Translations under genes and position numbers: made by a program
Virus record (IMG/VR): IMGVR_UViG_3300021254_000020
Span: 1 to 64,000 of that record
Source: a virus
Lineage: Duplodnaviria > Caudoviricetes
Strand: one strand, 5' to 3'
Length of the DNA: 64,000 nt
The notes under the pieces: model-generated
Seen by the model: the letters and a program-made list of their open reading frames with translations, nothing else
Told to the model about the DNA's origin: nothing
The model's database searches: none
Shown: positions 18,087 through 64,000 of the stretch, piece after piece
Position numbering within the stretch: position 1 is the first letter of the stretch
Layout: the number at the start of each line of letters is the position of its first letter

Positions 18087-18188
18087 CTTATACGACCTCC
18101 TTTTTAATTACCACCTTGTTCGCTTTATAAGATAATAACTCCCCTAACCCAATTAAGGGCTAGGGGAGAGGGAACTTATTAGTCTATC

Positions 18189-54355: not shown

Positions 54356-54961
54356 TTAAGATTGATTAATGTAGAACTCTCTTACAAACTGTTCTTGGTT
54401 TTCTCTAAACCATTCATCAGCTTCTAAATGAGAGAGATCTATTTTATAGAGTGGTTTGTGATAGCATCTTAATGCCTTCCTATACTTCTGAGGAAATACA
54501 TCCCAATTGTAGCCATGAATAGCCACATTAGAGATCTGTTTAATTAAGTAGAGTCTAGCGTTCATCATTAACTGCCTTTCTAAGACCAGGGAACACGAAC
54601 CGTTTTATAGTAACGATTTCTTCAATCTTGTGCTTAATCGATTGAATAAAGGTAATCAGTCTAGGATCGCATTTCAATGCCTTTCTTTTCTTTACTGAGA
54701 AGGAATCTAATATCTTCCTTCTATCAGAGATACGGCGTTTTCTTCTGTGTATCATGATTAGCTACCTCTACCAGATCTCTTGTTAGCCTGATGAGTAGCA
54801 GACTTGTCGATACTCTTTAGACTAGCGTTTCTAACTGATTTGTTTACTGCCTCTTTAACCAGTCCATTCATCATCATAGTATCAACATCAGAACCATGCT
54901 GTTTCCGATTTAGATTGTCAAACACGGCTTTCATATTGTACTTCTTTTTTATTCCGCCCAT
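54356..54961 (-). CDS. Three small coupled ORFs (54356-54568, 54555-54755, 54758-54961)
   Basis: Overlapping or adjacent starts and stops downstream of the chaperonin; basic peptides. Confidence 0.5.
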
Positions 54962-56877
54962 AATTCTCTTACCTCCTCTATAGAGATGAGATCTAATTTA
55001 GGAATCTCTTCCTCTTCATCTACCACTTCTTCTGTAGTGCCATCGGGACGGATTACAGTCTTGGCCTCCATATCCTTATAGATATTAAACTGAGGAGTAG
55101 GAAGCAGGAACTGATTGGTATTGAAGAGTACTGTGATGATACGGGAGATGCTATCAAGAATAGCAGGCTCACTCTTAATAGAGGTTAATACTGTACCATC
55201 ATATTTTTCAGTGATGATATTGAGAGGGCCACAGTCCTCTTTCAGCATTTTATGAATAGCCTCTTTGGTTAACTCCTCATCCTCAAAGTAGGGTTCATAC
55301 AGACGTTTGGTGATAGTCATATAAGCTGTAGCAACAAGGTTGTAGGTCAAGTTCAATACCTTGCAGTATTCAGCATCTTCATCAATTAATCTTCCCTTCT
55401 CGCATGAGTTGTAGAACGCATCCATGCTGGCACGTAAGCCTTCATAACTAGCACCATATCCAACACCGTCTTGAGCAGCAGATCTGCAGTTTAATACAGC
55501 GTCTTCTACAGCATCAGTCAAGCTACGTTTGTCACTGGTACCAATACCACCAACGTAGAGGTCAACCATATTGCCCTTAATGATATGGATACGTCTCTTC
55601 AGATTACCAATCTCTACTACTTCTTGATTAGTTTCCTGCAGCTTCTCCAACTGATCTTCCAAGTTGGATACATAGTTCTTGAAGTAATCAGTATACTCAT
55701 AGTTTTCATCACGCATTTTAGACGGATTGAGAATCTTGGTCTGGAGTTTATCTACAATGATCTTCTCTGCAGAACCTGCAAAGGTACGGATATTCATTTC
55801 ATTAGGAGCCAAACCCAATGCCTGATCTTTCTTGAAAGATTCAGGATCAATGTACTTCTTGATGAATTTACCACCACTCAGCTTACAGATATCAATCAGC
55901 TTATTAGGATCAGCAGCACCAGTCTGTACGATACAGAGACCATACCTCTGTTCTGGTTTTACGTTGTTATAACTAGCAATGATCTGATCCAGATAAGAGT
56001 TTGCATCACGGCTAAAGTGAGGAGCGAAGATGATAGTTGGGTAAGGCATAGTAACCTCACCTTTAGCAATCTTATCCTTGAGAGTACCATTCCGCTGAGC
56101 AGTTTGGAGTTTGATATTGGGCTCTTCAATCTCAGTATGAATAATGAGATGGAATATATCAATCATAGTAGGAGTATCTACAGGGCAATCAAATACGTAG
56201 ATATGAGGTTGCTCAAGAGTACAAGTATGATCAGAACGGTTGATGAAGCATGGATCCAGATAACCATTATCATAGATCATGCCATCGAATCCTTTGATTA
56301 CAGTCTCTTTAGCAGAGTTACCCTGTACATCAATGAATACACCCATACCATACTGCTTATAGATATCATAGATGACTTTGGCCATCTCTTCATTACCATC
56401 AAGAGAAGTGAGAGCAATGTCATAGATATCATCCAGAGTAGTCTTTCTGCCATTCTTTTCTACGGCTTCAGAGATTTCAGCAACTACATTCTTAAAGGCT
56501 TTGATAATCTTACGTTTCTTATAACCCATCTTTTGAAGAGTAACCAATCCTTCAAAGATGATATAAGAGAGCATAACTGCACTACTAGTACCGTCTCCCA
56601 CCACTTTGAGAACCTGAGTGCAGATATCACGAATCTCTTCTTTGAGAATTGATTCGATAGGCATATCGCATTCAATATTCTTGTGGATAGTAAATCCATC
56701 CTTAGAATAGTTGCTTACTGCCATCGTTTTCCCATCACTACTCATTTTAGAATAAGCAGTATAGCCTCCAAGAGGGCCATACGTCATACCCACAGTATCT
56801 GAGAACAATTTCAGTGCTCTCAGCTGTGCTTCTCTTAATGGCTTTTCGGGGACTACGTTGTCGACGAGCTTCTTCAT
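54949..56877 (-). CDS. groEL: Phage GroEL-like chaperonin
   Basis: TYGPLG, SKDGFTI, GDGTSS, FDGMIYDNGYL, VEDAV. Confidence 0.9.
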   Translation of the reverse strand: MKKLVDNVVPEKPLREAQLRALKLFSDTVGMTYGPLGGYTAYSKMSSDGKTMAVSNYSKDGFTIHKNIECDMPIESILKEEIRDICTQVLKVVGDGTSSAVMLSYIIFEGLVTLQKMGYKKRKIIKAFKNVVAEISEAVEKNGRKTTLDDIYDIALTSLDGNEEMAKVIYDIYKQYGMGVFIDVQGNSAKETVIKGFDGMIYDNGYLDPCFINRSDHTCTLEQPHIYVFDCPVDTPTMIDIFHLIIHTEIEEPNIKLQTAQRNGTLKDKIAKGEVTMPYPTIIFAPHFSRDANSYLDQIIASYNNVKPEQRYGLCIVQTGAADPNKLIDICKLSGGKFIKKYIDPESFKKDQALGLAPNEMNIRTFAGSAEKIIVDKLQTKILNPSKMRDENYEYTDYFKNYVSNLEDQLEKLQETNQEVVEIGNLKRRIHIIKGNMVDLYVGGIGTSDKRSLTDAVEDAVLNCRSAAQDGVGYGASYEGLRASMDAFYNSCEKGRLIDEDAEYCKVLNLTYNLVATAYMTITKRLYEPYFEDEELTKEAIHKMLKEDCGPLNIITEKYDGTVLTSIKSEPAILDSISRIITVLFNTNQFLLPTPQFNIYKDMEAKTVIRPDGTTEEVVDEEEEIPKLDLISIEEVRELWAE

Positions 56878-56895
56878 ATACTAATACCTCCTATA

Positions 56896-57540
56896 TTATC
56901 CCACTGGTTGTTGGTCGCTATACGGACTAATAAAGTTGAATATAGCCTTATTCATCCATCGAATAGCCAATGGGTTGATACCTGCTTTGGCATCCATCTT
57001 GAATCCTACATGATTCTTTGCCCAATCATATAAATAAACAACCTTTTTGTCGATATTCCATTTTCTACGTATTATATCTTCAATATCATAGATATATAGA
57101 ACATCGTACTTAGATACATCCTCTACATTGATCTTAGTATTCCAAAGATTAGTAAAATCTTTGCTACGTTTAACTTCTAAATCATTTTCACAGTTTATAG
57201 TAATCCTATACTTACCATCTTTGGCTCCTAGATACATCACGTTAGCAATTTCAGTGGGAGGAGAGTACTCTAGTACCTTATTCCACTTATCTGCCTTAAG
57301 TTCTCCATAGATTGTATCAGCATGACCAGCATATTCATCTTTAAATAAATACGCTATAGGATTTTCCTCACTTCTATTTAGAGCCATATATCTAAAGTAA
57401 TCGAAACTACTTTTACTGAGGAAATCATGATAGTAAGTTTGGTTTTTAGAACACAATCTCAAGTATAGGGCTGATCCTAATGCAGTATCATATATACAGT
57501 TGAAATCAACCAATATATTCTGATTATTATGCACTGCCAT
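56896..57540 (-). CDS. Hypothetical protein, possible degenerate HAD-like fold
   Basis: N-terminal ILVDFNCIYDT. Confidence 0.55.
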   Translation of the reverse strand: MAVHNNQNILVDFNCIYDTALGSALYLRLCSKNQTYYHDFLSKSSFDYFRYMALNRSEENPIAYLFKDEYAGHADTIYGELKADKWNKVLEYSPPTEIANVMYLGAKDGKYRITINCENDLEVKRSKDFTNLWNTKINVEDVSKYDVLYIYDIEDIIRRKWNIDKKVVYLYDWAKNHVGFKMDAKAGINPLAIRWMNKAIFNFISPYSDQQPVG

Positions 57541-57603
57541 ACTCTATCACCTTCTAAAAAAGAGATCCCCGTTAAGGGATCTCTTGTTTTATTAAGGGGC
57601 TGA

Positions 57604-58425
57604 TTAATCAGCTCCCTCTACTAACTTTTTCAAAGCAGATGCATCATATGTTTGCTGAGACGGACCAGTAATAATACTCTGGTTAGTAGAACCAATAGCA
57701 GGACCGCTACCAAATGTAGTATCACCTACACCCATACCAGCATTACCACCAGCAAAGAATCCATTGCTTCTCTGCTGACGATGCAGATTACCGCTCAGGT
57801 CTACAGACATCTTAGCTGCGATCTTATCAAGATACGGATACACCTGACCGATTACACTGAATGCAGTTGCATTGGTCATTGCCAGATAGTATTGTTCCAA
57901 CTGGGTAATGATGCTATCGAGCTCGATGTTCTGGAAATGGCTAGTGTCTTGTTTAAATGCCTTCGGGTTGTTGACATTGAATCCTACAATAGCACTAGTA
58001 CCATCAATATTACATTCATAAGAATAGGAGAGTTCTACGTTACCCTCTTCACTTACACGACGAATGCTGATGACAGGACCACGTCCAGGATACCCAAACG
58101 TATCAGGTTTATCTACGGTGATAATAGCTTGGCTGGTTGCTACACCATAGTTATCATACTGATCAGGATCTTCTTTATAACCTTTAAGAATCTGAGCAAA
58201 CTGATTTGCTTTCTGCGGAGTCAGCCAGATATTGACACCATTCTTATAGCCATAACGAGGAGCTTCATCAGTACCTGATTCAATAGCGGGAATGATACTA
58301 ATACGAATAGTAGTCTTCCACATACTAAAAGTGATGCAAGTCTTATCAATCTTGCTCGTCGGGTTGTACAGTGCGATACCACTCACTGTAGGGGACCATG
58401 GTTCTTGTGCACCATAAAATGCCAT
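57604..58425 (-). CDS. Hypothetical protein, possible ssDNA-binding protein
   Basis: Repeated beta-beta-helix pattern, Gly-rich tail, both early-like (58565-58579) and late-like promoters; function is inference. Confidence 0.5.
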   Translation of the reverse strand: MAFYGAQEPWSPTVSGIALYNPTSKIDKTCITFSMWKTTIRISIIPAIESGTDEAPRYGYKNGVNIWLTPQKANQFAQILKGYKEDPDQYDNYGVATSQAIITVDKPDTFGYPGRGPVISIRRVSEEGNVELSYSYECNIDGTSAIVGFNVNNPKAFKQDTSHFQNIELDSIITQLEQYYLAMTNATAFSVIGQVYPYLDKIAAKMSVDLSGNLHRQQRSNGFFAGGNAGMGVGDTTFGSGPAIGSTNQSIITGPSQQTYDASALKKLVEGAD

Positions 58426-58633
58426 AATGTTTACCTCCTAAACACTAAATAAAATAAAAAATATTCATGTACCTAGGTGTTAATTGATTATTCAAGTCTG
58501 ATGACCAATCAGACTTGCAATACACACTAGAGTACATTTACGGCTATAGTGGTTTCTCCCACTACATTTATATAGTATATAGTTGAGAGTTATATTAGGA
58601 TAAATTGAGGTAGACCGAAGTCTACCTCTTTTA

Positions 58634-59839
58634 TTATTGATCTTTCTGGGCTTTGTATTTATTTAGCAGTGATTTGGATTTGGTATAAGACGTACCGCCC
58701 TTGGAGAGTTCTTTACGTCTCTTATCCATTTCCTTAAAGATACCAGTCCATTGTTTAAATACCTCTTTCTCATCAGGAGAGATATTCTCATCCATGTAGT
58801 CTTTCACATACATCATTGAAGTATTGATGCTATGGAGCAAATCAGGAAGAGCATCAGGCTCTGATTTATCCAGATTCTCTTGTTTCAGCATAAATCCTAC
58901 CAAATCATTCTTTGAGATATCCAAGCAGTCTACTACATTAGTCTGAATAGGATATTTAGCATTACGCATCATATCCAACATATCGTCTTCATTGATAGTA
59001 GTATAGCCATATTCTTCTAATAGCATATCGTCATCAATTCGACTCAAACGTTTAACGAAGTTAGCCAGCTCCTGTTTTTCTATCTTACTGGGGGTAAGCT
59101 CTTGTAACCTCTCAAGAGTCTTGATAGCAGAGATACGATAACCAAGAACGTCTTTATATATACGCATAACCCAAGCTAGTGTGATATATTTATTAGTGAT
59201 TTCCTTCTTGGTATTATAGCCAAGCTTATCAATTTTATCCATAGCAGATTTGATATCCCCTCTATAATCAGTCCAAGTGATGAAGTCAGCAAAGGTATCT
59301 TCGGCTTCCTTATATACACCGAGTTCGAAAATGCTAGTGCATTTTCTCAGACTATCCCTAAAAGCATAGGAGAGGATTTTCTGATAGTGAATAACGTCAC
59401 TCAGTTTCAATACGTCATCATTGTCTATCAGATATTTATCCAAAGCATGTACTACCTCTTCAGCAGGTGCACTATTATTTGTAAGAGCTCCAATATCATG
59501 TACAATTAAAGCAGCAATCTGCTTATAGTTTAACCCCAAATAAGAACCAAACAGTTTACCATCTAATTCTAGTACATATTTATCTACCCTATACCGATTA
59601 TCTTTAGTGATAATCTGTACTACCTTTTCTGGTTCGATCTCAGGCATAGCATATAACCCAAAGAATAACTTATCCTCATTTCTAGTGAAAATAACGTTAT
59701 CACATTCTGTTTCTGGGAATAATTTATTTAATGCTGATTTGAGATCATCCAGATTGCGTTGTACTGCATTACGCATAATAGCAGATATAGCCAGTTCTAC
59801 ATCTTCATATGCATTCCTAGTTTTATTTTCAGAATTCAT
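58634..59839 (-). CDS. Hypothetical protein, possibly a head component
   Basis: 401 aa; GACT-N6-TA promoter; AAGGAGG RBS. Confidence 0.65.
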   Translation of the reverse strand: MNSENKTRNAYEDVELAISAIMRNAVQRNLDDLKSALNKLFPETECDNVIFTRNEDKLFFGLYAMPEIEPEKVVQIITKDNRYRVDKYVLELDGKLFGSYLGLNYKQIAALIVHDIGALTNNSAPAEEVVHALDKYLIDNDDVLKLSDVIHYQKILSYAFRDSLRKCTSIFELGVYKEAEDTFADFITWTDYRGDIKSAMDKIDKLGYNTKKEITNKYITLAWVMRIYKDVLGYRISAIKTLERLQELTPSKIEKQELANFVKRLSRIDDDMLLEEYGYTTINEDDMLDMMRNAKYPIQTNVVDCLDISKNDLVGFMLKQENLDKSEPDALPDLLHSINTSMMYVKDYMDENISPDEKEVFKQWTGIFKEMDKRRKELSKGGTSYTKSKSLLNKYKAQKDQ

Positions 59840-59909
59840 TAGTAGTCCTCCTTTATTTCAACAGCTTCGTAAGAAGTTCTTATTATTAAGTCGAGAGGAT
59901 GTGATTCTA

Positions 59910-60086
59910 ATGGAAAATAAGAACCATTATGTTATTGGCCCTAGGGCTTTGAATGACTACACGGCCAACCTACCAGAAAATGATCCTAGAAAGAAACAGA
60001 AGCCATGGTGGGAGAAAGAGAAGAAGGTGGCTAGTGTTGTAGTAGCATCTCCTATGGAGAGTAAAGTAAGACCTGAGAATTTCTAA
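59910..60086 (+). CDS. 58-aa microprotein with capsid-identical motif IGPRALNDYTAN
   Basis: AACA-N6-TA promoter 59860-59871, GAGAGG RBS, terminator 60102-60128; synonymous-only divergence from the capsid copy. Confidence 0.75.
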   Translation: MENKNHYVIGPRALNDYTANLPENDPRKKQKPWWEKEKKVASVVVASPMESKVRPENF

Positions 60087-60129
60087 TTCATACACAAGAA
60101 CGGAGTAGAGGTACCCATCCTCTACTCCA

Positions 60130-60485: not shown

Positions 60486-60818
60486 ATGTCGACTCGTTTA
60501 TTTAAGATCAGATCATTTATGGATGCAGATATCGTTTCTGATAGCACCCATATTTATGATCGTATGATCGAACGCAAAATGAATATCCGTGATTTCCTGT
60601 ATCTCCTTGAATCCGCAGTAGATGACGTTCTTGATGAAGTCGATAGTGGCTTCGAAATTATGCTTCGTTCAAAGAGCATGAAAAAGAGCATCGTATTTGT
60701 AGCGGTATACAACGAGGAAAAGGACATCATTGATATTCAGATGATCACTTGCATCAATAAGTTTGCGGTAGTATCCGAAAAGGATGCTTATAAAACGCAT
60801 GCTTATGATGTAGCTTGA
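60486..60818 (+). CDS. Early protein with a DUF4258/RelE-like HxxxRMxER motif
   Basis: STHIYDRMIERKMN; C-terminal MITCI strand. Confidence 0.55.
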   Translation: MSTRLFKIRSFMDADIVSDSTHIYDRMIERKMNIRDFLYLLESAVDDVLDEVDSGFEIMLRSKSMKKSIVFVAVYNEEKDIIDIQMITCINKFAVVSEKDAYKTHAYDVA

Positions 60819-60961
60819 CAATTTAATATGGAGAAAGATAGGCAGTTAATTCTGCCTATCTTTTTTGCAATAGTTTTGTTATTCCGTTATATATTATTGT
60901 AGTGAGAAAGTCAATATTATAGGATATTGATTAGTGCATATACCTAGAAAGGGGTATTAGT

Positions 60962-61213
60962 ATGAACAGTATTACGCTAAAATTAACAAAGGGTCAGATC
61001 GAGTTTCTCAAAACACACAAAGATGTTATGGAAGACGTGAGCAAATATCTCACAGTAGAAACCATCATTGACTTGGCATCTCAAATTCGCGATTTGGAAA
61101 TGGATGATATCTCTGCATATCATAGTGGAGATATTGCGAATGTCGAGTTAGATGTCAAAATGGATACCAATGGGAATTGTTCTATTGGTATTGATAATGT
61201 TGATGTAAAGTAA
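60962..61213 (+). CDS. Hypothetical early protein
   Basis: Early-like promoter 60890-60904; GAAAGGGG RBS. Confidence 0.65.
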   Translation: MNSITLKLTKGQIEFLKTHKDVMEDVSKYLTVETIIDLASQIRDLEMDDISAYHSGDIANVELDVKMDTNGNCSIGIDNVDVK

Positions 61214-61222
61214 GAGGAGGAA

Positions 61223-61918
61223 ATGACCATGTTAGCAAATAAAGTATTTAGCCAGGACGTAAATACCGTAATCAAATTCATTAGCAATTTATCTCACGAT
61301 GTTACTGAAAATAAATTATCATTCCAGTTTGAGATCAAAGCATTGAAAAATAGCGGTAAAAACGAGAAAGCCCATATACTTGAAAAACGCTGCGCTATGT
61401 TCTTAGAAGAAGCAAAGAAAGTAGAACAGGTATATGAGCATAACCTCGAGCAGGGCACCAAATTACATCGTTTATTAATTTCGAAGTATGGGTACAATGA
61501 AGCTACTAGTGAACTTAATAAAGAGCTGGAGCTTGATAACTTTAAAGATTATTTCATCAATAATTATTCTCTGTTCCGCAAAGCTGTAGGACTCACCCGC
61601 AAGCAGGTAGGAATCGAATTACATGTAACAGAAACGTATATCTATAGTATAGAACGAAATAATGATGAGAAATTCTTCAGCCTGTATTTCCTTGCAGTTT
61701 TGAAAAAGAGTAAATCTCTTGGGAATTTCGATATGCTCATTCTCAGCCATAGGGAAAAGGAGTTGTTCGAAAACATCGTGCTTACAAACAAAAACAAATA
61801 TAATGTAAGAGAATCTCTCACTCCTCAAAAAGTTGCTATGCTTGAAAAAGAGGAATGTGTAGATTACGATGGTATTAAAATTCCCAAGTTTCTGATGAAC
61901 GTGTTATTTAATTCTTAA
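61223..61918 (+). CDS. XRE-type helix-turn-helix protein
   Basis: FRKAVGLTRKQVGIELHVTETYIYSIERN. Confidence 0.7.
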   Translation: MTMLANKVFSQDVNTVIKFISNLSHDVTENKLSFQFEIKALKNSGKNEKAHILEKRCAMFLEEAKKVEQVYEHNLEQGTKLHRLLISKYGYNEATSELNKELELDNFKDYFINNYSLFRKAVGLTRKQVGIELHVTETYIYSIERNNDEKFFSLYFLAVLKKSKSLGNFDMLILSHREKELFENIVLTNKNKYNVRESLTPQKVAMLEKEECVDYDGIKIPKFLMNVLFNS

Positions 61919-61931
61919 GGAGGAAAATAAA

Positions 61932-62318
61932 ATGAGAGAAAAATTGATTGCAGGGTTGATTAACAGCGCAGATTCTATTCTTGAAGTAGCAAAAACTGGC
62001 AATAAGTTGGCAATGCCAGTATACTATTTATTCAGTTTGGTCGGTATGGCAATATCTCTTCCAATAACTATATTGGTCACAATTCCGTTCATTAGTAATG
62101 CACATGTTAGATCATTGCTTATTAGATCTATCAATAATACTATAAGAATGGTAGGGATCTCCTTTGTCGGTATGTTTCTATCTCCATTATCGCCTACGTC
62201 TTTCATTATAGTAACGATTGAGTCATTAGAAGCTAGCCTAAATGGTTATGGCACTAGCTTAAAAATGTATGATCGTCCATACGATGAGAAGACCGTAAAA
62301 GAATATTTGGCAGCATAA
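61932..62318 (+). CDS. Membrane protein
   Basis: Two to three hydrophobic segments; resembles the N-terminal half of 62428-63159. Confidence 0.7.
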   Translation: MREKLIAGLINSADSILEVAKTGNKLAMPVYYLFSLVGMAISLPITILVTIPFISNAHVRSLLIRSINNTIRMVGISFVGMFLSPLSPTSFIIVTIESLEASLNGYGTSLKMYDRPYDEKTVKEYLAA

Positions 62319-62427
62319 GCATAACAAATCCCCCTCACTTGAGGGGGTTATTTTTTGTAAACTGCAATACGATTATATATTATACTAGTGAGTGATAATA
62401 AATTGAAATTTAAAGGAGGATAAACCT

Positions 62428-63159
62428 ATGCCTATTTTTGATCAATTTTTAATGAGACTTATCAGTGAGCTTATTGATTACGGAAGAGCAAATAATAAGT
62501 TTGCTATTGTCAGAAAACTACTAGGAGTCTTTGTATTTTCAACAGCTCTTACATTGATGAGCACTATACTTCTTCCATTTTCTGTGTTACTGGGTAAAGA
62601 TAGTTTGAGTAGTTGTTTTAAAAGCATATATGTATATGGTCGTCTACTTGGAGCTTCTCTGATAGGAATTCCAGTTACAATAATTAACCCTAAAGATGTG
62701 GTAATATCTGTAGTGACTTTGTTAGCAGATGTAATCAAACTGTTCTCTGGAAAGGACGTCAATTTCGGACCTTCTGATGATAAGGATGCTATGCTTAAAG
62801 TTATATTAAATACTGAACCTGGAGCTACTGTAGTATTTAATGTACCAAATCAACCTACGATTTCTATTGAAGATCAGATCAATGATGAATTGAGAAATAA
62901 TACTTTGTTTAAAAGAAGGTTTGATACTAATGCACAATTATACGATGCGTATTGGCCCATGTATACTAATATGATGGAAGAATTAAAGAAGCTTCTCAAA
63001 TCAAGCCCAAATGAATTTGATAGTTTAATGCATATTAAAGTAGATATGACTAATGAGTTCAATGCATTATCGGCAGAGATAATCAATTTACAATCTGATA
63101 CTGATTTTGAGATAATGGATTCCAAGATCAGAAATTTTATGAACAAGTATAAATCATAA
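62428..63159 (+). CDS. Membrane protein with a soluble helical C-terminal domain
   Basis: Hydrophobic N-half; early-like promoter 62376-62390. Confidence 0.72.
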   Translation: MPIFDQFLMRLISELIDYGRANNKFAIVRKLLGVFVFSTALTLMSTILLPFSVLLGKDSLSSCFKSIYVYGRLLGASLIGIPVTIINPKDVVISVVTLLADVIKLFSGKDVNFGPSDDKDAMLKVILNTEPGATVVFNVPNQPTISIEDQINDELRNNTLFKRRFDTNAQLYDAYWPMYTNMMEELKKLLKSSPNEFDSLMHIKVDMTNEFNALSAEIINLQSDTDFEIMDSKIRNFMNKYKS

Positions 63160-63405: not shown

Positions 63406-64000
63406 TTAGTAACCAGTGGTATCATTGCTCGGTGCCGGGTTAGACGGATCCGATACAGCATAATTAGGCTGGTGAGCCGACTTATTGTTGCCATAGACCG
63501 CATCTTTAAACTCGCCCGGAGCATTAGTCATCTGGTTCATTACGCTGACTGGAGTCTTCGGAATAGCATCGGAACCGAACTGAACGAACTGCTTAGTGGT
63601 TTCATCGAAGGTAATCTTATTAGCAGTGTAGTCGTTGAGAGCACGCGGACCGATCGGGCTGTCATTCTCAACTTCAGTCTTGAGACCAGTCGGGTTGAGG
63701 ATCTGGATACGACCCTGAACAGGTTGATAGCTCAGGAACAGGAAGCGTTCGAATGCAGTTACTGCCGGCAGCTGGTAGTTATCCGTATCACGAATTTCGT
63801 TACCAACGTACAGCTGATAATCGAAGATCTTGTACATGATACGATTCGAGTTACGCGGATTCAGAATGATAATCAGGTTGTTATCGTTACGCAGCTTGTT
63901 GGAGCTGATGAACTGGTAAACACGATTATCGCTAGTCTTAACCGTCTTCTTATAGTCGAGCATTACAGGACCAATGTTGGACGGAGTTACATAGCTGTAT
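63406..64000 (-). CDS. Probable major capsid protein, C-terminal part (continues beyond the window)
   Basis: Open to the window edge; very strong C-ending codon bias; LPAVTAFERF..YQPVQGRIQILNP resembles my recollection of capsid C-termini in this group; terminator near 63330-63360. Confidence 0.68.
   Translation of the reverse strand, partial: YSYVTPSNIGPVMLDYKKTVKTSDNRVYQFISSNKLRNDNNLIIILNPRNSNRIMYKIFDYQLYVGNEIRDTDNYQLPAVTAFERFLFLSYQPVQGRIQILNPTGLKTEVENDSPIGPRALNDYTANKITFDETTKQFVQFGSDAIPKTPVSVMNQMTNAPGEFKDAVYGNNKSAHQPNYAVSDPSNPAPSNDTTGY

What the first reader, a model, noticed from the sequence alone, without database searches (positions are those of the whole stretch)
59860..60128. Hidden 58-aa late microprotein carrying an exact, synonymously recoded 12-aa capsid motif
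Seen: IGPRALNDYTAN is encoded at 59934-59969 (+) and in the C-terminal extension of the probable major capsid protein at 63619-63654 (-). Nine of 12 codons differ, all synonymously (for example AGG/CGT and TTG/CTC), so selection acts on the peptide. The small ORF has its own late-like promoter, RBS and terminator. Inference: a stand-alone mimic of a capsid docking motif, acting either as an assembly or cargo adaptor or as a decoy for a host capsid-sensing defence (capsid-triggered systems such as CapRel and Lit are established).
Basis: partly seen in the sequence, partly recalled or inferred. Interest (0 to 1): 0.72.

Follow-up and report, generated by a model that had tools for sequence, protein, structure and literature searches.

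The report
Free-standing copy of capsid protein's tail
A 266-kb jumbo phage and all its close relatives examined carry a tiny gene (about 58 codons) that is an old, separately evolving copy of the flexible C-terminal tail of their own major capsid protein, so the phage probably makes that tail both attached to the capsid protein and as a loose peptide that docks at the same site.

Summary
IGPRALNDYTAN is encoded at 59934-59969 (+) in a 58-aa ORF (59910-60086). It is encoded again at 63619-63654 (-), at residues 593-604 of a 674-aa protein. Nine of 12 codons differ, all synonymously.

The large protein is the major capsid protein (MCP). It matches the solved capsid of Staphylococcus jumbo phage S6 (7x30). 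The motif lies in an ~89-residue tail beyond the HK97 body.

The small ORF is a real gene:
- At least 36 clusters at 50% identity, all 43-68 aa.
- R and N invariant; D, Y and K in at least 90% of members.
- pN/pS below 1 in three close pairs.
- Shine-Dalgarno sites in most relatives and terminator-like hairpins in several.

It is more than a 12-aa motif. It is collinear with the whole MCP tail. With the motif removed, the two profiles still align (P 2e-4).

It sits where a tandem duplicate of the MCP 3' end would lie. In two lineages it directly follows the MCP gene. A near-complete short-tail relative lacks it.

One lineage changed the motif in both genes (NEY-S/T-SM) while every shared degenerate codon differs, which points to peptide-level co-evolution.

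Function is inferred: a trans-acting tail mimic sharing the tail's docking site. The defence-decoy idea is untested.

The scan had already noted this same stretch in an overlapping window of this genome.

The parts
59860..59872 (+). Promoter-like motif AACA-GCTTCG-TAA (AR9-type late consensus AACA-N6-T-A/G), 38 nt before the start codon
   Evidence: Sequence. Consensus from PMC5449584. AACA-N6-TAA occurs 29 times in the genome against about 62 expected, often just upstream of Shine-Dalgarno sites. The MCP gene has AACATAAACGTAA upstream. The motif is not conserved upstream of the small gene in relatives.
59893..59899 (+). Shine-Dalgarno-like GAGAGGA, 10 nt before the ATG
   Evidence: Relatives carry AGGAGG or GGAGG at matching spacing.
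59910..60086 (+). 58-aa microprotein gene (P0002), a free-standing paralogue of the MCP C-terminal tail
   Evidence: Family of 34 clusters at 90% identity and 36 at 50%, all 43-68 aa. Alignments A2 and A3. hhalign against MCP tails E 1.2e-11. pN/pS 0.05-0.49.
59934..59969 (+). Module 1: IGPRALNDYTAN (family core R-A-L-N-D-Y-T-A-N)
   Evidence: R12 and N15 are invariant; D16 and Y17 are present in at least 90% of 36 cluster representatives.
60021..60059 (+). Module 2: KKVASVVVASPME (family consensus PKKVAxxIxxxSPME), collinear with MCP tail VSVMNQMTNAPGE
   Evidence: With module 1 removed, the small-protein and tail profiles still align here. P 1.9e-4, 19 columns, at nearly the same distance from module 1.
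60102..60128 (.). 10-bp G+C-rich hairpin directly after the stop codon, terminator-like on both strands
   Evidence: -25.1 kcal/mol, z -6.5. Comparable hairpins follow the gene in L008, L012, L014/L015 and L021.
63406..64000 (-). 3' part of the major capsid protein gene. The whole gene is 63406-65430 on the genome and runs out of the window.
63409..63675 (-). MCP C-terminal tail (residues 586-674), beyond the part that aligns with solved HK97-fold capsid proteins
   Evidence: 7x30_A and phrog_20655 alignments end at residue 582. pLDDT is below 50 for residues 585-674 in the AlphaFold model. The most distant relatives lack the tail, and an intermediate group has a short one.
63619..63654 (-). 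Module 1 in the MCP tail: IGPRALNDYTAN (residues 593-604)

Best explanation
The 58-aa ORF is a translated, conserved microprotein that is a paralogue of the MCP's own disordered C-terminal tail.

Origin. It arose once, by duplication of the 3' end of the MCP gene into the gap between the MCP gene and the next conserved gene (g401). It then diverged at synonymous sites and became basic, while keeping the tail's short docking modules: RALNDYTAN, PKKVAxxIxxxSPME, and in some members YVYAPN or a terminal PENF.

Inferred mechanism. In HK97-fold capsid proteins the C-terminus usually emerges on the outer face near the capsomer centre. Module 1 follows the last strand of the fold after only about 14 residues. 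The tail modules should therefore dock on the capsid lattice itself or on something bound to it. The free peptide then docks at the same site in trans. Its genome-average codon usage suggests it is made in much smaller amounts than the MCP. The likeliest role is a sub-stoichiometric capsid accessory peptide: a tail supplied in trans that completes, staples or tunes the lattice during late assembly.

Shown: paralogy, conservation, purifying selection, position, and co-variation in one lineage. Inferred: shared docking site, capsid association, timing.
For: Gene reality:
- 34 clusters at 90% identity and 36 at 50%, all 43-68 aa.
- Invariant R12 and N15; near-invariant D16, Y17 and K39.
- pN/pS 0.34, 0.49 and 0.05 in three close pairs.
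- Shine-Dalgarno sites in most relatives and terminator-like hairpins in several.

Paralogy with the tail:
- hhalign of small-protein against tail profiles: 97.4% probability, E 1.2e-11, 42 columns.
- With module 1 cut out, P 1.9e-4 at a collinear position.
- Some MCP tails even read SSPME (P0078, P0086, P0090).
- Some small proteins end in NYIYAPNN, YVYAGKNK or PENF, like the tails' YVYAPNY and PDNF.

Origin:
- Conserved order RNAP-beta, g482, g266, MCP, [variable], small, g401, g273, g214, Cpn60.
- Relatives with no tail or a short one (L019, L016) have the MCP gene abutting g401.
- In L023 and L028 the small gene lies 98 and 80 nt after the MCP stop, on the same strand.
- The near-complete short-tail genome G001 has no small gene.
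- All 11 long-tail loci with enough flank have one.
- A tree that keeps all small genes as one clade is the best found (p-AU 0.976).

Shared constraint:
- In L023 the MCP tail reads RALNEYSSM...APGQHIDLH and the small protein RALNEYTSM...APGEHIDIH. All 8 identical degenerate codons in the motif window differ.
- True small/tail pairs share 8.5 of 13 positions against 7.6 in shuffled pairings (P 0.023, n=10).

Expression:
- MCP Arg CGN 84% and NAY-C 0.46 (99th percentile of the genome). Small gene 11% and 0.23; genome median 0.26.

Location and precedent:
- In phiKZ the MCP C-terminal arm contacts the outer decoration protein gp244.
- In phiKZ, extended peptides (gp93 residues 14-84, gp162II) staple capsomers by strand addition at 3 and 2 copies per 27 MCPs (PMC11297242).
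Against: - No direct evidence that either the tail or the microprotein binds the capsid body. The tail is low-confidence in the monomer model, and that model is poor overall (pLDDT 59, pTM 0.32).
- If every MCP subunit brings its own tethered tail, it is not obvious which sites are left free for a loose copy.
- Co-variation is not strict. L027 has MCP NDWTAN against small NDYDAN. L028 has NDYYAN against NDYTAN. L013 and L021 have NDYTAN against NDYNAD.
- The permutation test is not corrected for relatedness.
- The small proteins are basic (pI 9.0-9.9) while most tails are acidic (pI 4.6-5.1). They are therefore not interchangeable and may have a second, different partner.
- No virion proteome or cultured isolate exists for this clade.
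Confidence: 0.45

Rival explanations
1. Assembly regulator or competitor. The free tail copy binds the tail-docking site on unassembled MCP or on capsomers. By competing with the tethered tails it delays or steers lattice closure, acting as a chaperone-like cap or a timing or size control, and it is absent from the finished virion.
For: It rests on the same paralogy and shared-motif evidence as the main explanation. Genome-average codon usage fits a sub-stoichiometric regulator. The opposite net charge of the peptide and the tail could make the free copy a better or worse binder than the tethered one, as a competitor would need.
Against: A low-abundance competitor would have to act against more than a thousand tethered tails per capsid, each with a high local concentration. 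No timing data exist. The AR9-type late motif, if real, would put the gene in the same late class as the MCP gene. That gives the peptide no head start.
Confidence: 0.2
2. Shared third-party partner. The tail modules are short linear motifs read by another protein: a decoration or trafficking factor of the phage, or a host factor. This includes the first reader's idea of a host defence sensor that recognises the capsid protein. The free peptide would then act as an adaptor, buffer or decoy for that partner.
For: The tail is predicted disordered and made of short conserved motifs. Peptide-level co-variation in the L023 lineage fits any common receptor. The same genome holds a second, unrelated 247-aa protein carrying a 46-aa copy of another MCP segment (26/46 identical, E 1e-12) in a non-structural neighbourhood. 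MCP-fragment mimicry may therefore be a recurring theme here.
Against: No candidate partner was identified. Module 1 sits only about 14 residues from the end of the fold, which favours a site on the lattice itself. For a defence decoy, binding a sensor usually triggers it. A weakly expressed peptide would also have to out-compete the most abundant late protein. The gene is core to the whole long-tail clade, whereas counter-defence genes are usually patchy. PADLOC and anti-defence libraries were not searched.
Confidence: 0.2
3. Neutral remnant. The ORF is a decaying leftover of a partial duplication of the MCP gene and has no function of its own.
For: It lies where a tandem duplicate of the MCP 3' end would be.
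Against: The reading frame, start, Shine-Dalgarno site and length (43-68 aa) are kept across 36 clusters at 50% identity, with invariant residues. pN/pS is below 1. Synonymous sites differ heavily from the MCP copy while the peptide is kept. The gene survived inversion and the insertion of up to 3.6 kb of other genes between it and the MCP gene.
Confidence: 0.03

Closest known systems
phiKZ fiber-like minor capsid proteins gp93 (ordered residues 14-84) and gp162II (PMC11297242)
   Same: They are short extended peptides without a globular fold. They bind MCP subunits of a related jumbo-phage capsid by strand addition. They are present at far fewer copies than the MCP, and they staple capsomers together.
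   Different: They lie on the inner capsid surface and are cut by the head protease after Glu. They are not paralogues of any MCP segment. The microprotein here has no PHROG or Pfam match, has no [L/I/V]-x-E leader, and derives from the MCP's own C-terminal tail, which by topology should be external.
C-terminal arm of jumbo-phage MCPs (phiKZ gp120, phiKp24; PMC11297242)
   Same: It is a flexible C-terminal arm of an HK97-fold MCP of the same broad lineage. Foldseek hits 8y6v and 8bfl. In phiKZ the arm makes contacts on the outer face of the capsomer, with gp244.
   Different: The tail here is much longer (about 89 residues) and clade-specific. It is absent from S6-type and more distant relatives. 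It also exists a second time as a separate gene.
Small outer capsid and decoration proteins (T4 Soc, lambda gpD)
   Same: They are small accessory proteins added to an HK97-fold lattice late in assembly to stabilise it.
   Different: Soc and gpD are folded proteins unrelated to their MCPs, and they bind at near-stoichiometric sites between capsomers. No sequence similarity was found here. This comparison rests on my own knowledge of those proteins.
Docking peptides that load proteins onto HK97-fold shells (encapsulin cargo-loading peptides, T4 capsid-targeting sequences)
   Same: A short linear peptide is enough to dock on a shell protein. Such peptides occur both fused and free.
   Different: Those peptides target cargo to the shell interior. 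T4 targeting sequences are N-terminal leaders removed after [L/I]-x-E. Here the peptide carries no cargo, has no such leader, and copies the shell protein's own tail.
Capsid-triggered defence (CapRel sensing an MCP; Lit sensing the T4 Gol peptide)
   Same: A short region of an MCP is the recognised element, so a free copy of such a region could in principle interfere.
   Different: No sensor, host or trigger is known for this clade. Known triggers activate the sensor rather than block it. Nothing here tests this.

Membership tests
HK97-fold major capsid protein (for the 63406-65430 ORF) | Sequence similarity to known or solved major capsid proteins | tested here: met
   phrog_20655 'major head protein' E 1.6e-14. 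7x30_A, capsid of Staphylococcus jumbo phage S6, E 1.1e-9 over residues 287-582.
HK97-fold major capsid protein (for the 63406-65430 ORF) | Fold similarity to solved capsid proteins | tested here: met
   Foldseek best hits are 7x30 (E 3.7e-14), 8bfl, 8y6v and 9ukm, all phage head proteins. The model itself is poor (pLDDT 59), so TM-scores are low.
MCP C-terminal tail paralogue (for the 58-aa ORF) | Significant, collinear similarity to the MCP tail beyond the 12-aa motif | tested here: met
   hhalign E 1.2e-11 over 42 columns. With the motif removed, P 1.9e-4 over 19 collinear columns. Third-module and C-terminal matches seen in alignments.
MCP C-terminal tail paralogue (for the 58-aa ORF) | Genomic position consistent with duplication of the MCP 3' end | tested here: met
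   The gene is always between MCP and g401. It is directly downstream of MCP on the same strand in L023 and L028. It is absent where the MCP has no tail or a short one.
phiKZ-type fiber-like minor capsid proteins (gp93/gp162) | Sequence family membership | tested here: not met
   No PHROG or Pfam family matches P0002. A HMMER search of 1.84 billion representatives returned only 43-68 aa proteins of its own family.
phiKZ-type fiber-like minor capsid proteins (gp93/gp162) | Presence in the virion, bound to MCP | not testable with these tools
   No isolate or virion proteome exists for this clade.
T4-type capsid-targeted internal proteins | N-terminal leader ending in [L/I/V]-x-E, cut by the head protease | tested here: not met
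   The N-terminus MENKNHYVIGPRAL has no such site. The conserved distal S-P-M-E does not fit S/A/G-x-E or L/I-x-E, and it is absent from several tails and small proteins.
Decoy of a capsid-sensing defence system | Binds or blocks a host sensor that recognises the MCP | not testable with these tools
   Host and sensor are unknown. No computation here bears on it.

The most novel reading that the evidence does not exclude
This phage uses copies of its own capsid protein's contact elements as free agents. Two such copies are present: the tail microprotein, and separately a 247-aa protein carrying a copy of the MCP's probable E-loop hairpin. On this reading they act as decoys. They would either titrate a host sensor that recognises capsid protein, or poison the capsid assembly of competing related phages, rather than building the phage's own capsid.
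Probability: 0.1. Interest if true: 0.85.

Novelty: new variant of a known kind. Interest (0 to 1): 0.55.

Why it matters
Capsid accessory proteins are normally unrelated to the capsid protein they bind. Here a whole clade of uncultured 250-340 kb phages keeps a stand-alone gene made from the capsid protein's own flexible tail. That gives a clean natural case of a tethered and an untethered version of the same docking peptide in one virus.

If the peptide docks on the lattice, three things follow:
- It defines a minimal, transferable capsid-binding tag (core R-A-L-N-D-Y-T-A-N) for a jumbo-phage shell.
- It shows one way minor capsid proteins can originate: partial duplication of the capsid gene.
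- It gives a concrete handle on how very large HK97-type shells are completed or stabilised.

It is also a well-supported example of a functional phage microprotein of about 50 residues, of the kind often left unannotated.

Tried and rejected
- Complex prediction: two copies of MCP residues 120-585 plus the microprotein gave 'no answer' (score 0.06, mark 0.32, controls not run). This is neither for nor against binding.
- AlphaFold of the full MCP with 45 sequences gave pLDDT 59 and pTM 0.32, with the tail below 50. It was of no use for locating a docking site.
- Family and collection searches. Pfam and PHROGs gave nothing for the microprotein or for neighbours g401, g273, g214, g110, g231, g128 and g243. 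The ESM Atlas gave no usable hit. The cultured-phage collection has no near relative of the region, and none of g401 or g273. Only S6-like Staphylococcus jumbo phages hit the MCP, at 20% identity.
- Head-protease site idea. The conserved S-P-M-E / A-P-G-E could have been a cleavage site after Glu. I rejected it. The P3 residue is usually Pro, not S/A/G or L/I. Several lineages also lack the Glu (L010 tail KAPGVPQ; small proteins with APGM or APGW).
- Gene conversion as the cause of identity. Rejected. 53 of 81 identical degenerate codons differ across 9 genomes, and Arg is CGT in the MCP against AGA or AGG in the small gene in all eight pairs where Arg aligns (L013 has Ile there).
- Repeated re-duplication as the cause of the L023 co-variation. 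Not excluded outright, but the best tree keeps all small genes together. The L023 small protein also has the small-family module 2 (QPIKTAVNI) rather than its own tail's LPGPAVSVM.
- A second MCP-like (vertex) paralogue lacking the tail, whose sites the free peptide might fill. None was found in the genome.
- Conservation of the AACA-N6-TA motif upstream of the gene in relatives. Not found.
- A passing resemblance of ALNDY to the SspB-binding part of the E. coli ssrA tag. This was recalled from memory only and not pursued.
- Literature searches for a described capsid-arm paralogue found none.

Full report
**1. The observation**

The window is the first 64 kb of a 266,420-bp virus record of 36% G+C. 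A 58-aa ORF runs from ATG 59910 to TAA 60086 on the + strand and reads MENKNHYVIGPRALNDYTANLPEND....

The peptide IGPRALNDYTAN at 59934-59969 recurs on the - strand at 63619-63654. Nine of 12 codons differ, all synonymously, and 25 of 36 bases are identical.

The - strand ORF runs out of the window. On the genome it is 63406-65430 and 674 aa long, with the motif at residues 593-604. A six-frame scan of the whole genome finds the motif only at these two places.

**2. The large ORF is the major capsid protein, and the motif lies in a tail beyond the fold**

- It matches phrog_20655, 'major head protein' (E 1.6e-14).
- It matches chain 7x30_A, the capsid of Staphylococcus jumbo phage S6 (E 1.1e-9).
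- An AlphaFold model of it is poor (pLDDT 59). Even so, its best Foldseek matches are 7x30, phiKp24 (8bfl), phiKZ (8y6v) and P1 capsid proteins.

All sequence alignments to known capsid proteins stop at residue 582. Residues 586-674 are a Pro/Asn/Thr/Ser-rich tail with pLDDT below 50.

Nearby genes include a split RNA polymerase beta subunit and a GroEL-like chaperonin. That places the phage in the AR9/phiKZ-related group with multisubunit polymerases.

The tail is clade-specific:
- MCPs at 40-43% identity end right after VQGR..NP.
- An intermediate group (47-53% identity) carries a short tail with only a degenerate module 1.
- MCPs at 57% identity or more carry the long tail.

**3. The small ORF is a real, conserved gene**

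A profile of eight copies found 34 clusters at 90% identity. A word-index-free HMMER search of 1.84 billion representatives found 36 clusters at 50% identity. All members are 43-68 aa, and no larger protein came up.

R12 and N15 are invariant. D16, Y17 and K39 are present in at least 90% of the representatives.

pN/pS is 0.34, 0.49 and 0.05 in three close pairs. Shine-Dalgarno sites (AGGAGG or GGAGG) stand at the right spacing in most relatives, and terminator-like hairpins follow the gene in several. In the window the hairpin is at 60102-60128 (z -6.5).

**4. It is a paralogue of the whole tail, not a 12-aa motif**

Small proteins and tails share three collinear modules.
- Module 1: R-A-L-N-D-Y-T-A-N, preceded by a similar E-N-x-x-x-[VI]-[GS] run.
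- Module 2: P-K-K-V-A-x-x-I-x-x-x-S-P-M-E in the small proteins, against L-P-G-T-x-R-S-A-[IM]-x-x-x-x-N-A-x-N-E in the tails. Some tails read SSPME outright.
- Module 3, in part of the family: N-Y-[VI]-Y-A-P-N or a terminal PENF, against the tails' Y-V-Y-A-P-N-Y and terminal PDNF.

Profile-profile comparison gives 97.4% probability and E 1.2e-11 over 42 columns. After module 1 is cut out of both larger alignments, the remainders still align at P 1.9e-4, at almost the same distance from the cut.

**5. Origin**

The gene order is RNAP-beta, g482, g266, MCP, [variable genes], small gene, g401, g273, g214, Cpn60. It is conserved across the clade.

- In relatives with no tail or a short one, the MCP gene abuts g401.
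- In L023 and L028 the small gene follows the MCP terminator directly (98 and 80 nt after the stop) on the same strand.
- In L013, L021 and L022 it is on the same strand but further away.
- In the window and six other loci it is inverted, with 1-3.6 kb of unrelated genes inserted.
- The near-complete short-tail genome G001 has no copy anywhere.

A tree of the shared region with all small genes held as one clade is the best tree found (p-AU 0.976). The simplest history is one tandem duplication of the MCP 3' end after the long tail had evolved.

**6. What the synonymous 'recoding' means**

Across ten genomes the MCP uses Arg CGN 84%, Leu CTN 82% and C-ending NAY codons 46%. In this genome it sits at the 99th percentile for C-ending NAY codons. 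The small gene uses 11%, 46% and 23%, close to the genome median of 26%.

In all eight pairs where Arg aligns, the module-1 Arg codon is CGT in the MCP and AGA or AGG in the small gene. The two copies have therefore sat in different expression regimes for a long time, without gene conversion. The peptide is kept by selection in both. The small gene is probably expressed far below MCP level.

**7. Co-variation**

In the L023 lineage, module 1 reads RALNEYSSM in the tail and RALNEYTSM in the small protein. A downstream stretch is also mirrored (APGQHIDLH against APGEHIDIH). All eight identical degenerate codons in the motif window differ.

Over ten genomes, a small protein matches its own MCP tail better than the tails of other genomes. 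The score is 8.5 against 7.6 of 13 positions (permutation P 0.023, not corrected for relatedness).

The coupling is loose at the less constrained positions. L027 has NDW-T against NDY-D, and L028 has NDYY against NDYT.

**8. Differences between the copies**

The small proteins are uniformly basic (pI 9.0-9.9) because of a Lys-rich linker and C-terminus. Most tails are acidic (pI 4.6-5.1).

**9. Expression signals**

AACAGCTTCGTA at 59860-59871 fits the AR9 non-virion polymerase late consensus A(-11)ACA-N6-T-A/G(+1) (PMC5449584).

In this genome AACA-N6-TAA is under-represented (29 against about 62 expected). It often sits just upstream of Shine-Dalgarno sites, and the MCP gene has AACATAAACGTAA upstream. 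The motif is short and is not conserved before the small gene in relatives. Late expression is therefore plausible but unproven.

In the tandem arrangement, the gene could also be reached by read-through of the MCP terminator.

**10. Mechanism**

From general knowledge of the fold and of phiKZ (PMC11297242), the C-terminus of HK97-fold capsid proteins lies on the outer face near the capsomer centre. In phiKZ the C-terminal arm contacts an outer decoration protein.

Module 1 starts only about 14 residues after the last strand, so its receptor must lie within the same capsomer or be bound to it.

I therefore read the tail as a tethered, extended docking arm and the microprotein as the same arm supplied in trans. 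The closest analogues by way of working are the extended 'fiber-like' minor capsid proteins of phiKZ, which staple capsomers at 3 and 2 copies per 27 MCPs. They are unrelated in sequence and lie inside the shell.

Which sites a loose copy fills is open, since each subunit brings its own tail. No tail-less MCP paralogue exists in the genome that could leave sites empty.

The rivals are:
- a competitor that times or steers assembly;
- a neutral remnant, which the conservation data disfavour.

**11. Verdict**

The function is inferred. It is a new variant of capsid accessory protein of moderate interest, with a well-defined experiment to settle it.

Noticed in passing
Outside the window: genome 170075-170815 (-), = L029:4076-4816 (-): A 247-aa protein in a non-structural neighbourhood, next to the ribonucleotide reductase gene, carries a 46-aa copy of MCP residues 130-175 (26/46 identical, E 1e-12). 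That MCP segment is a predicted beta-hairpin and probably the E-loop. 10 of 25 identical degenerate codons differ. I found no orthologue in five complete relatives or in IMG/VR. This is a second, independent MCP-fragment copy in the same phage.
   Followed up: partly
window 54949-56877 (-): A phage-encoded GroEL-like chaperonin (phrog_5725 E 1.8e-50; Cpn60_TCP1 in relatives). It is the last gene of a block g401, g273, g214, Cpn60 that is conserved next to the capsid gene across the whole clade, including tail-less relatives.
   Followed up: partly
window 56896-59839 (-): Three conserved genes of unknown function (401, 273 and 214 aa) have no Pfam, PHROG or cultured-phage match. The 273-aa protein has a Gly/Gln-rich linker and an acidic C-terminal tip. 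That recalls single-strand DNA-binding proteins, from my own memory only and untested.
   Followed up: partly
whole genome; examples at 18120, 33203, 82632, 83687 (-): AACA-N6-TAA is depleted genome-wide (29 against about 62 expected). Many copies sit 30-140 nt upstream of ORFs, just before Shine-Dalgarno sites, which fits an AR9-type late promoter class.
   Followed up: partly
window 63406-64000 and beyond (MCP gene): The MCP gene has extreme codon usage for this genome. It is at the 99th percentile for C-ending NAY codons, and all 26 Arg codons are CGN with no AGR.
   Followed up: yes
L025:1382-2780 and L026:650-2402: In a divergent lineage whose small protein reads RAMNEYTSM, the gene directly upstream of the microprotein gene encodes a Laminin_G_3 (concanavalin-like) domain protein of 377-495 aa. 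The contigs are too short to see the MCP gene.
   Followed up: no
window 60486-63159 (+): The DNA between the microprotein gene and the MCP gene is a variable insert that differs between relatives. Here it holds five + strand ORFs of 110, 83, 231, 128 and 243 aa, none with a family match among those searched. The 128- and 243-aa products look like membrane proteins by eye.
   Followed up: no
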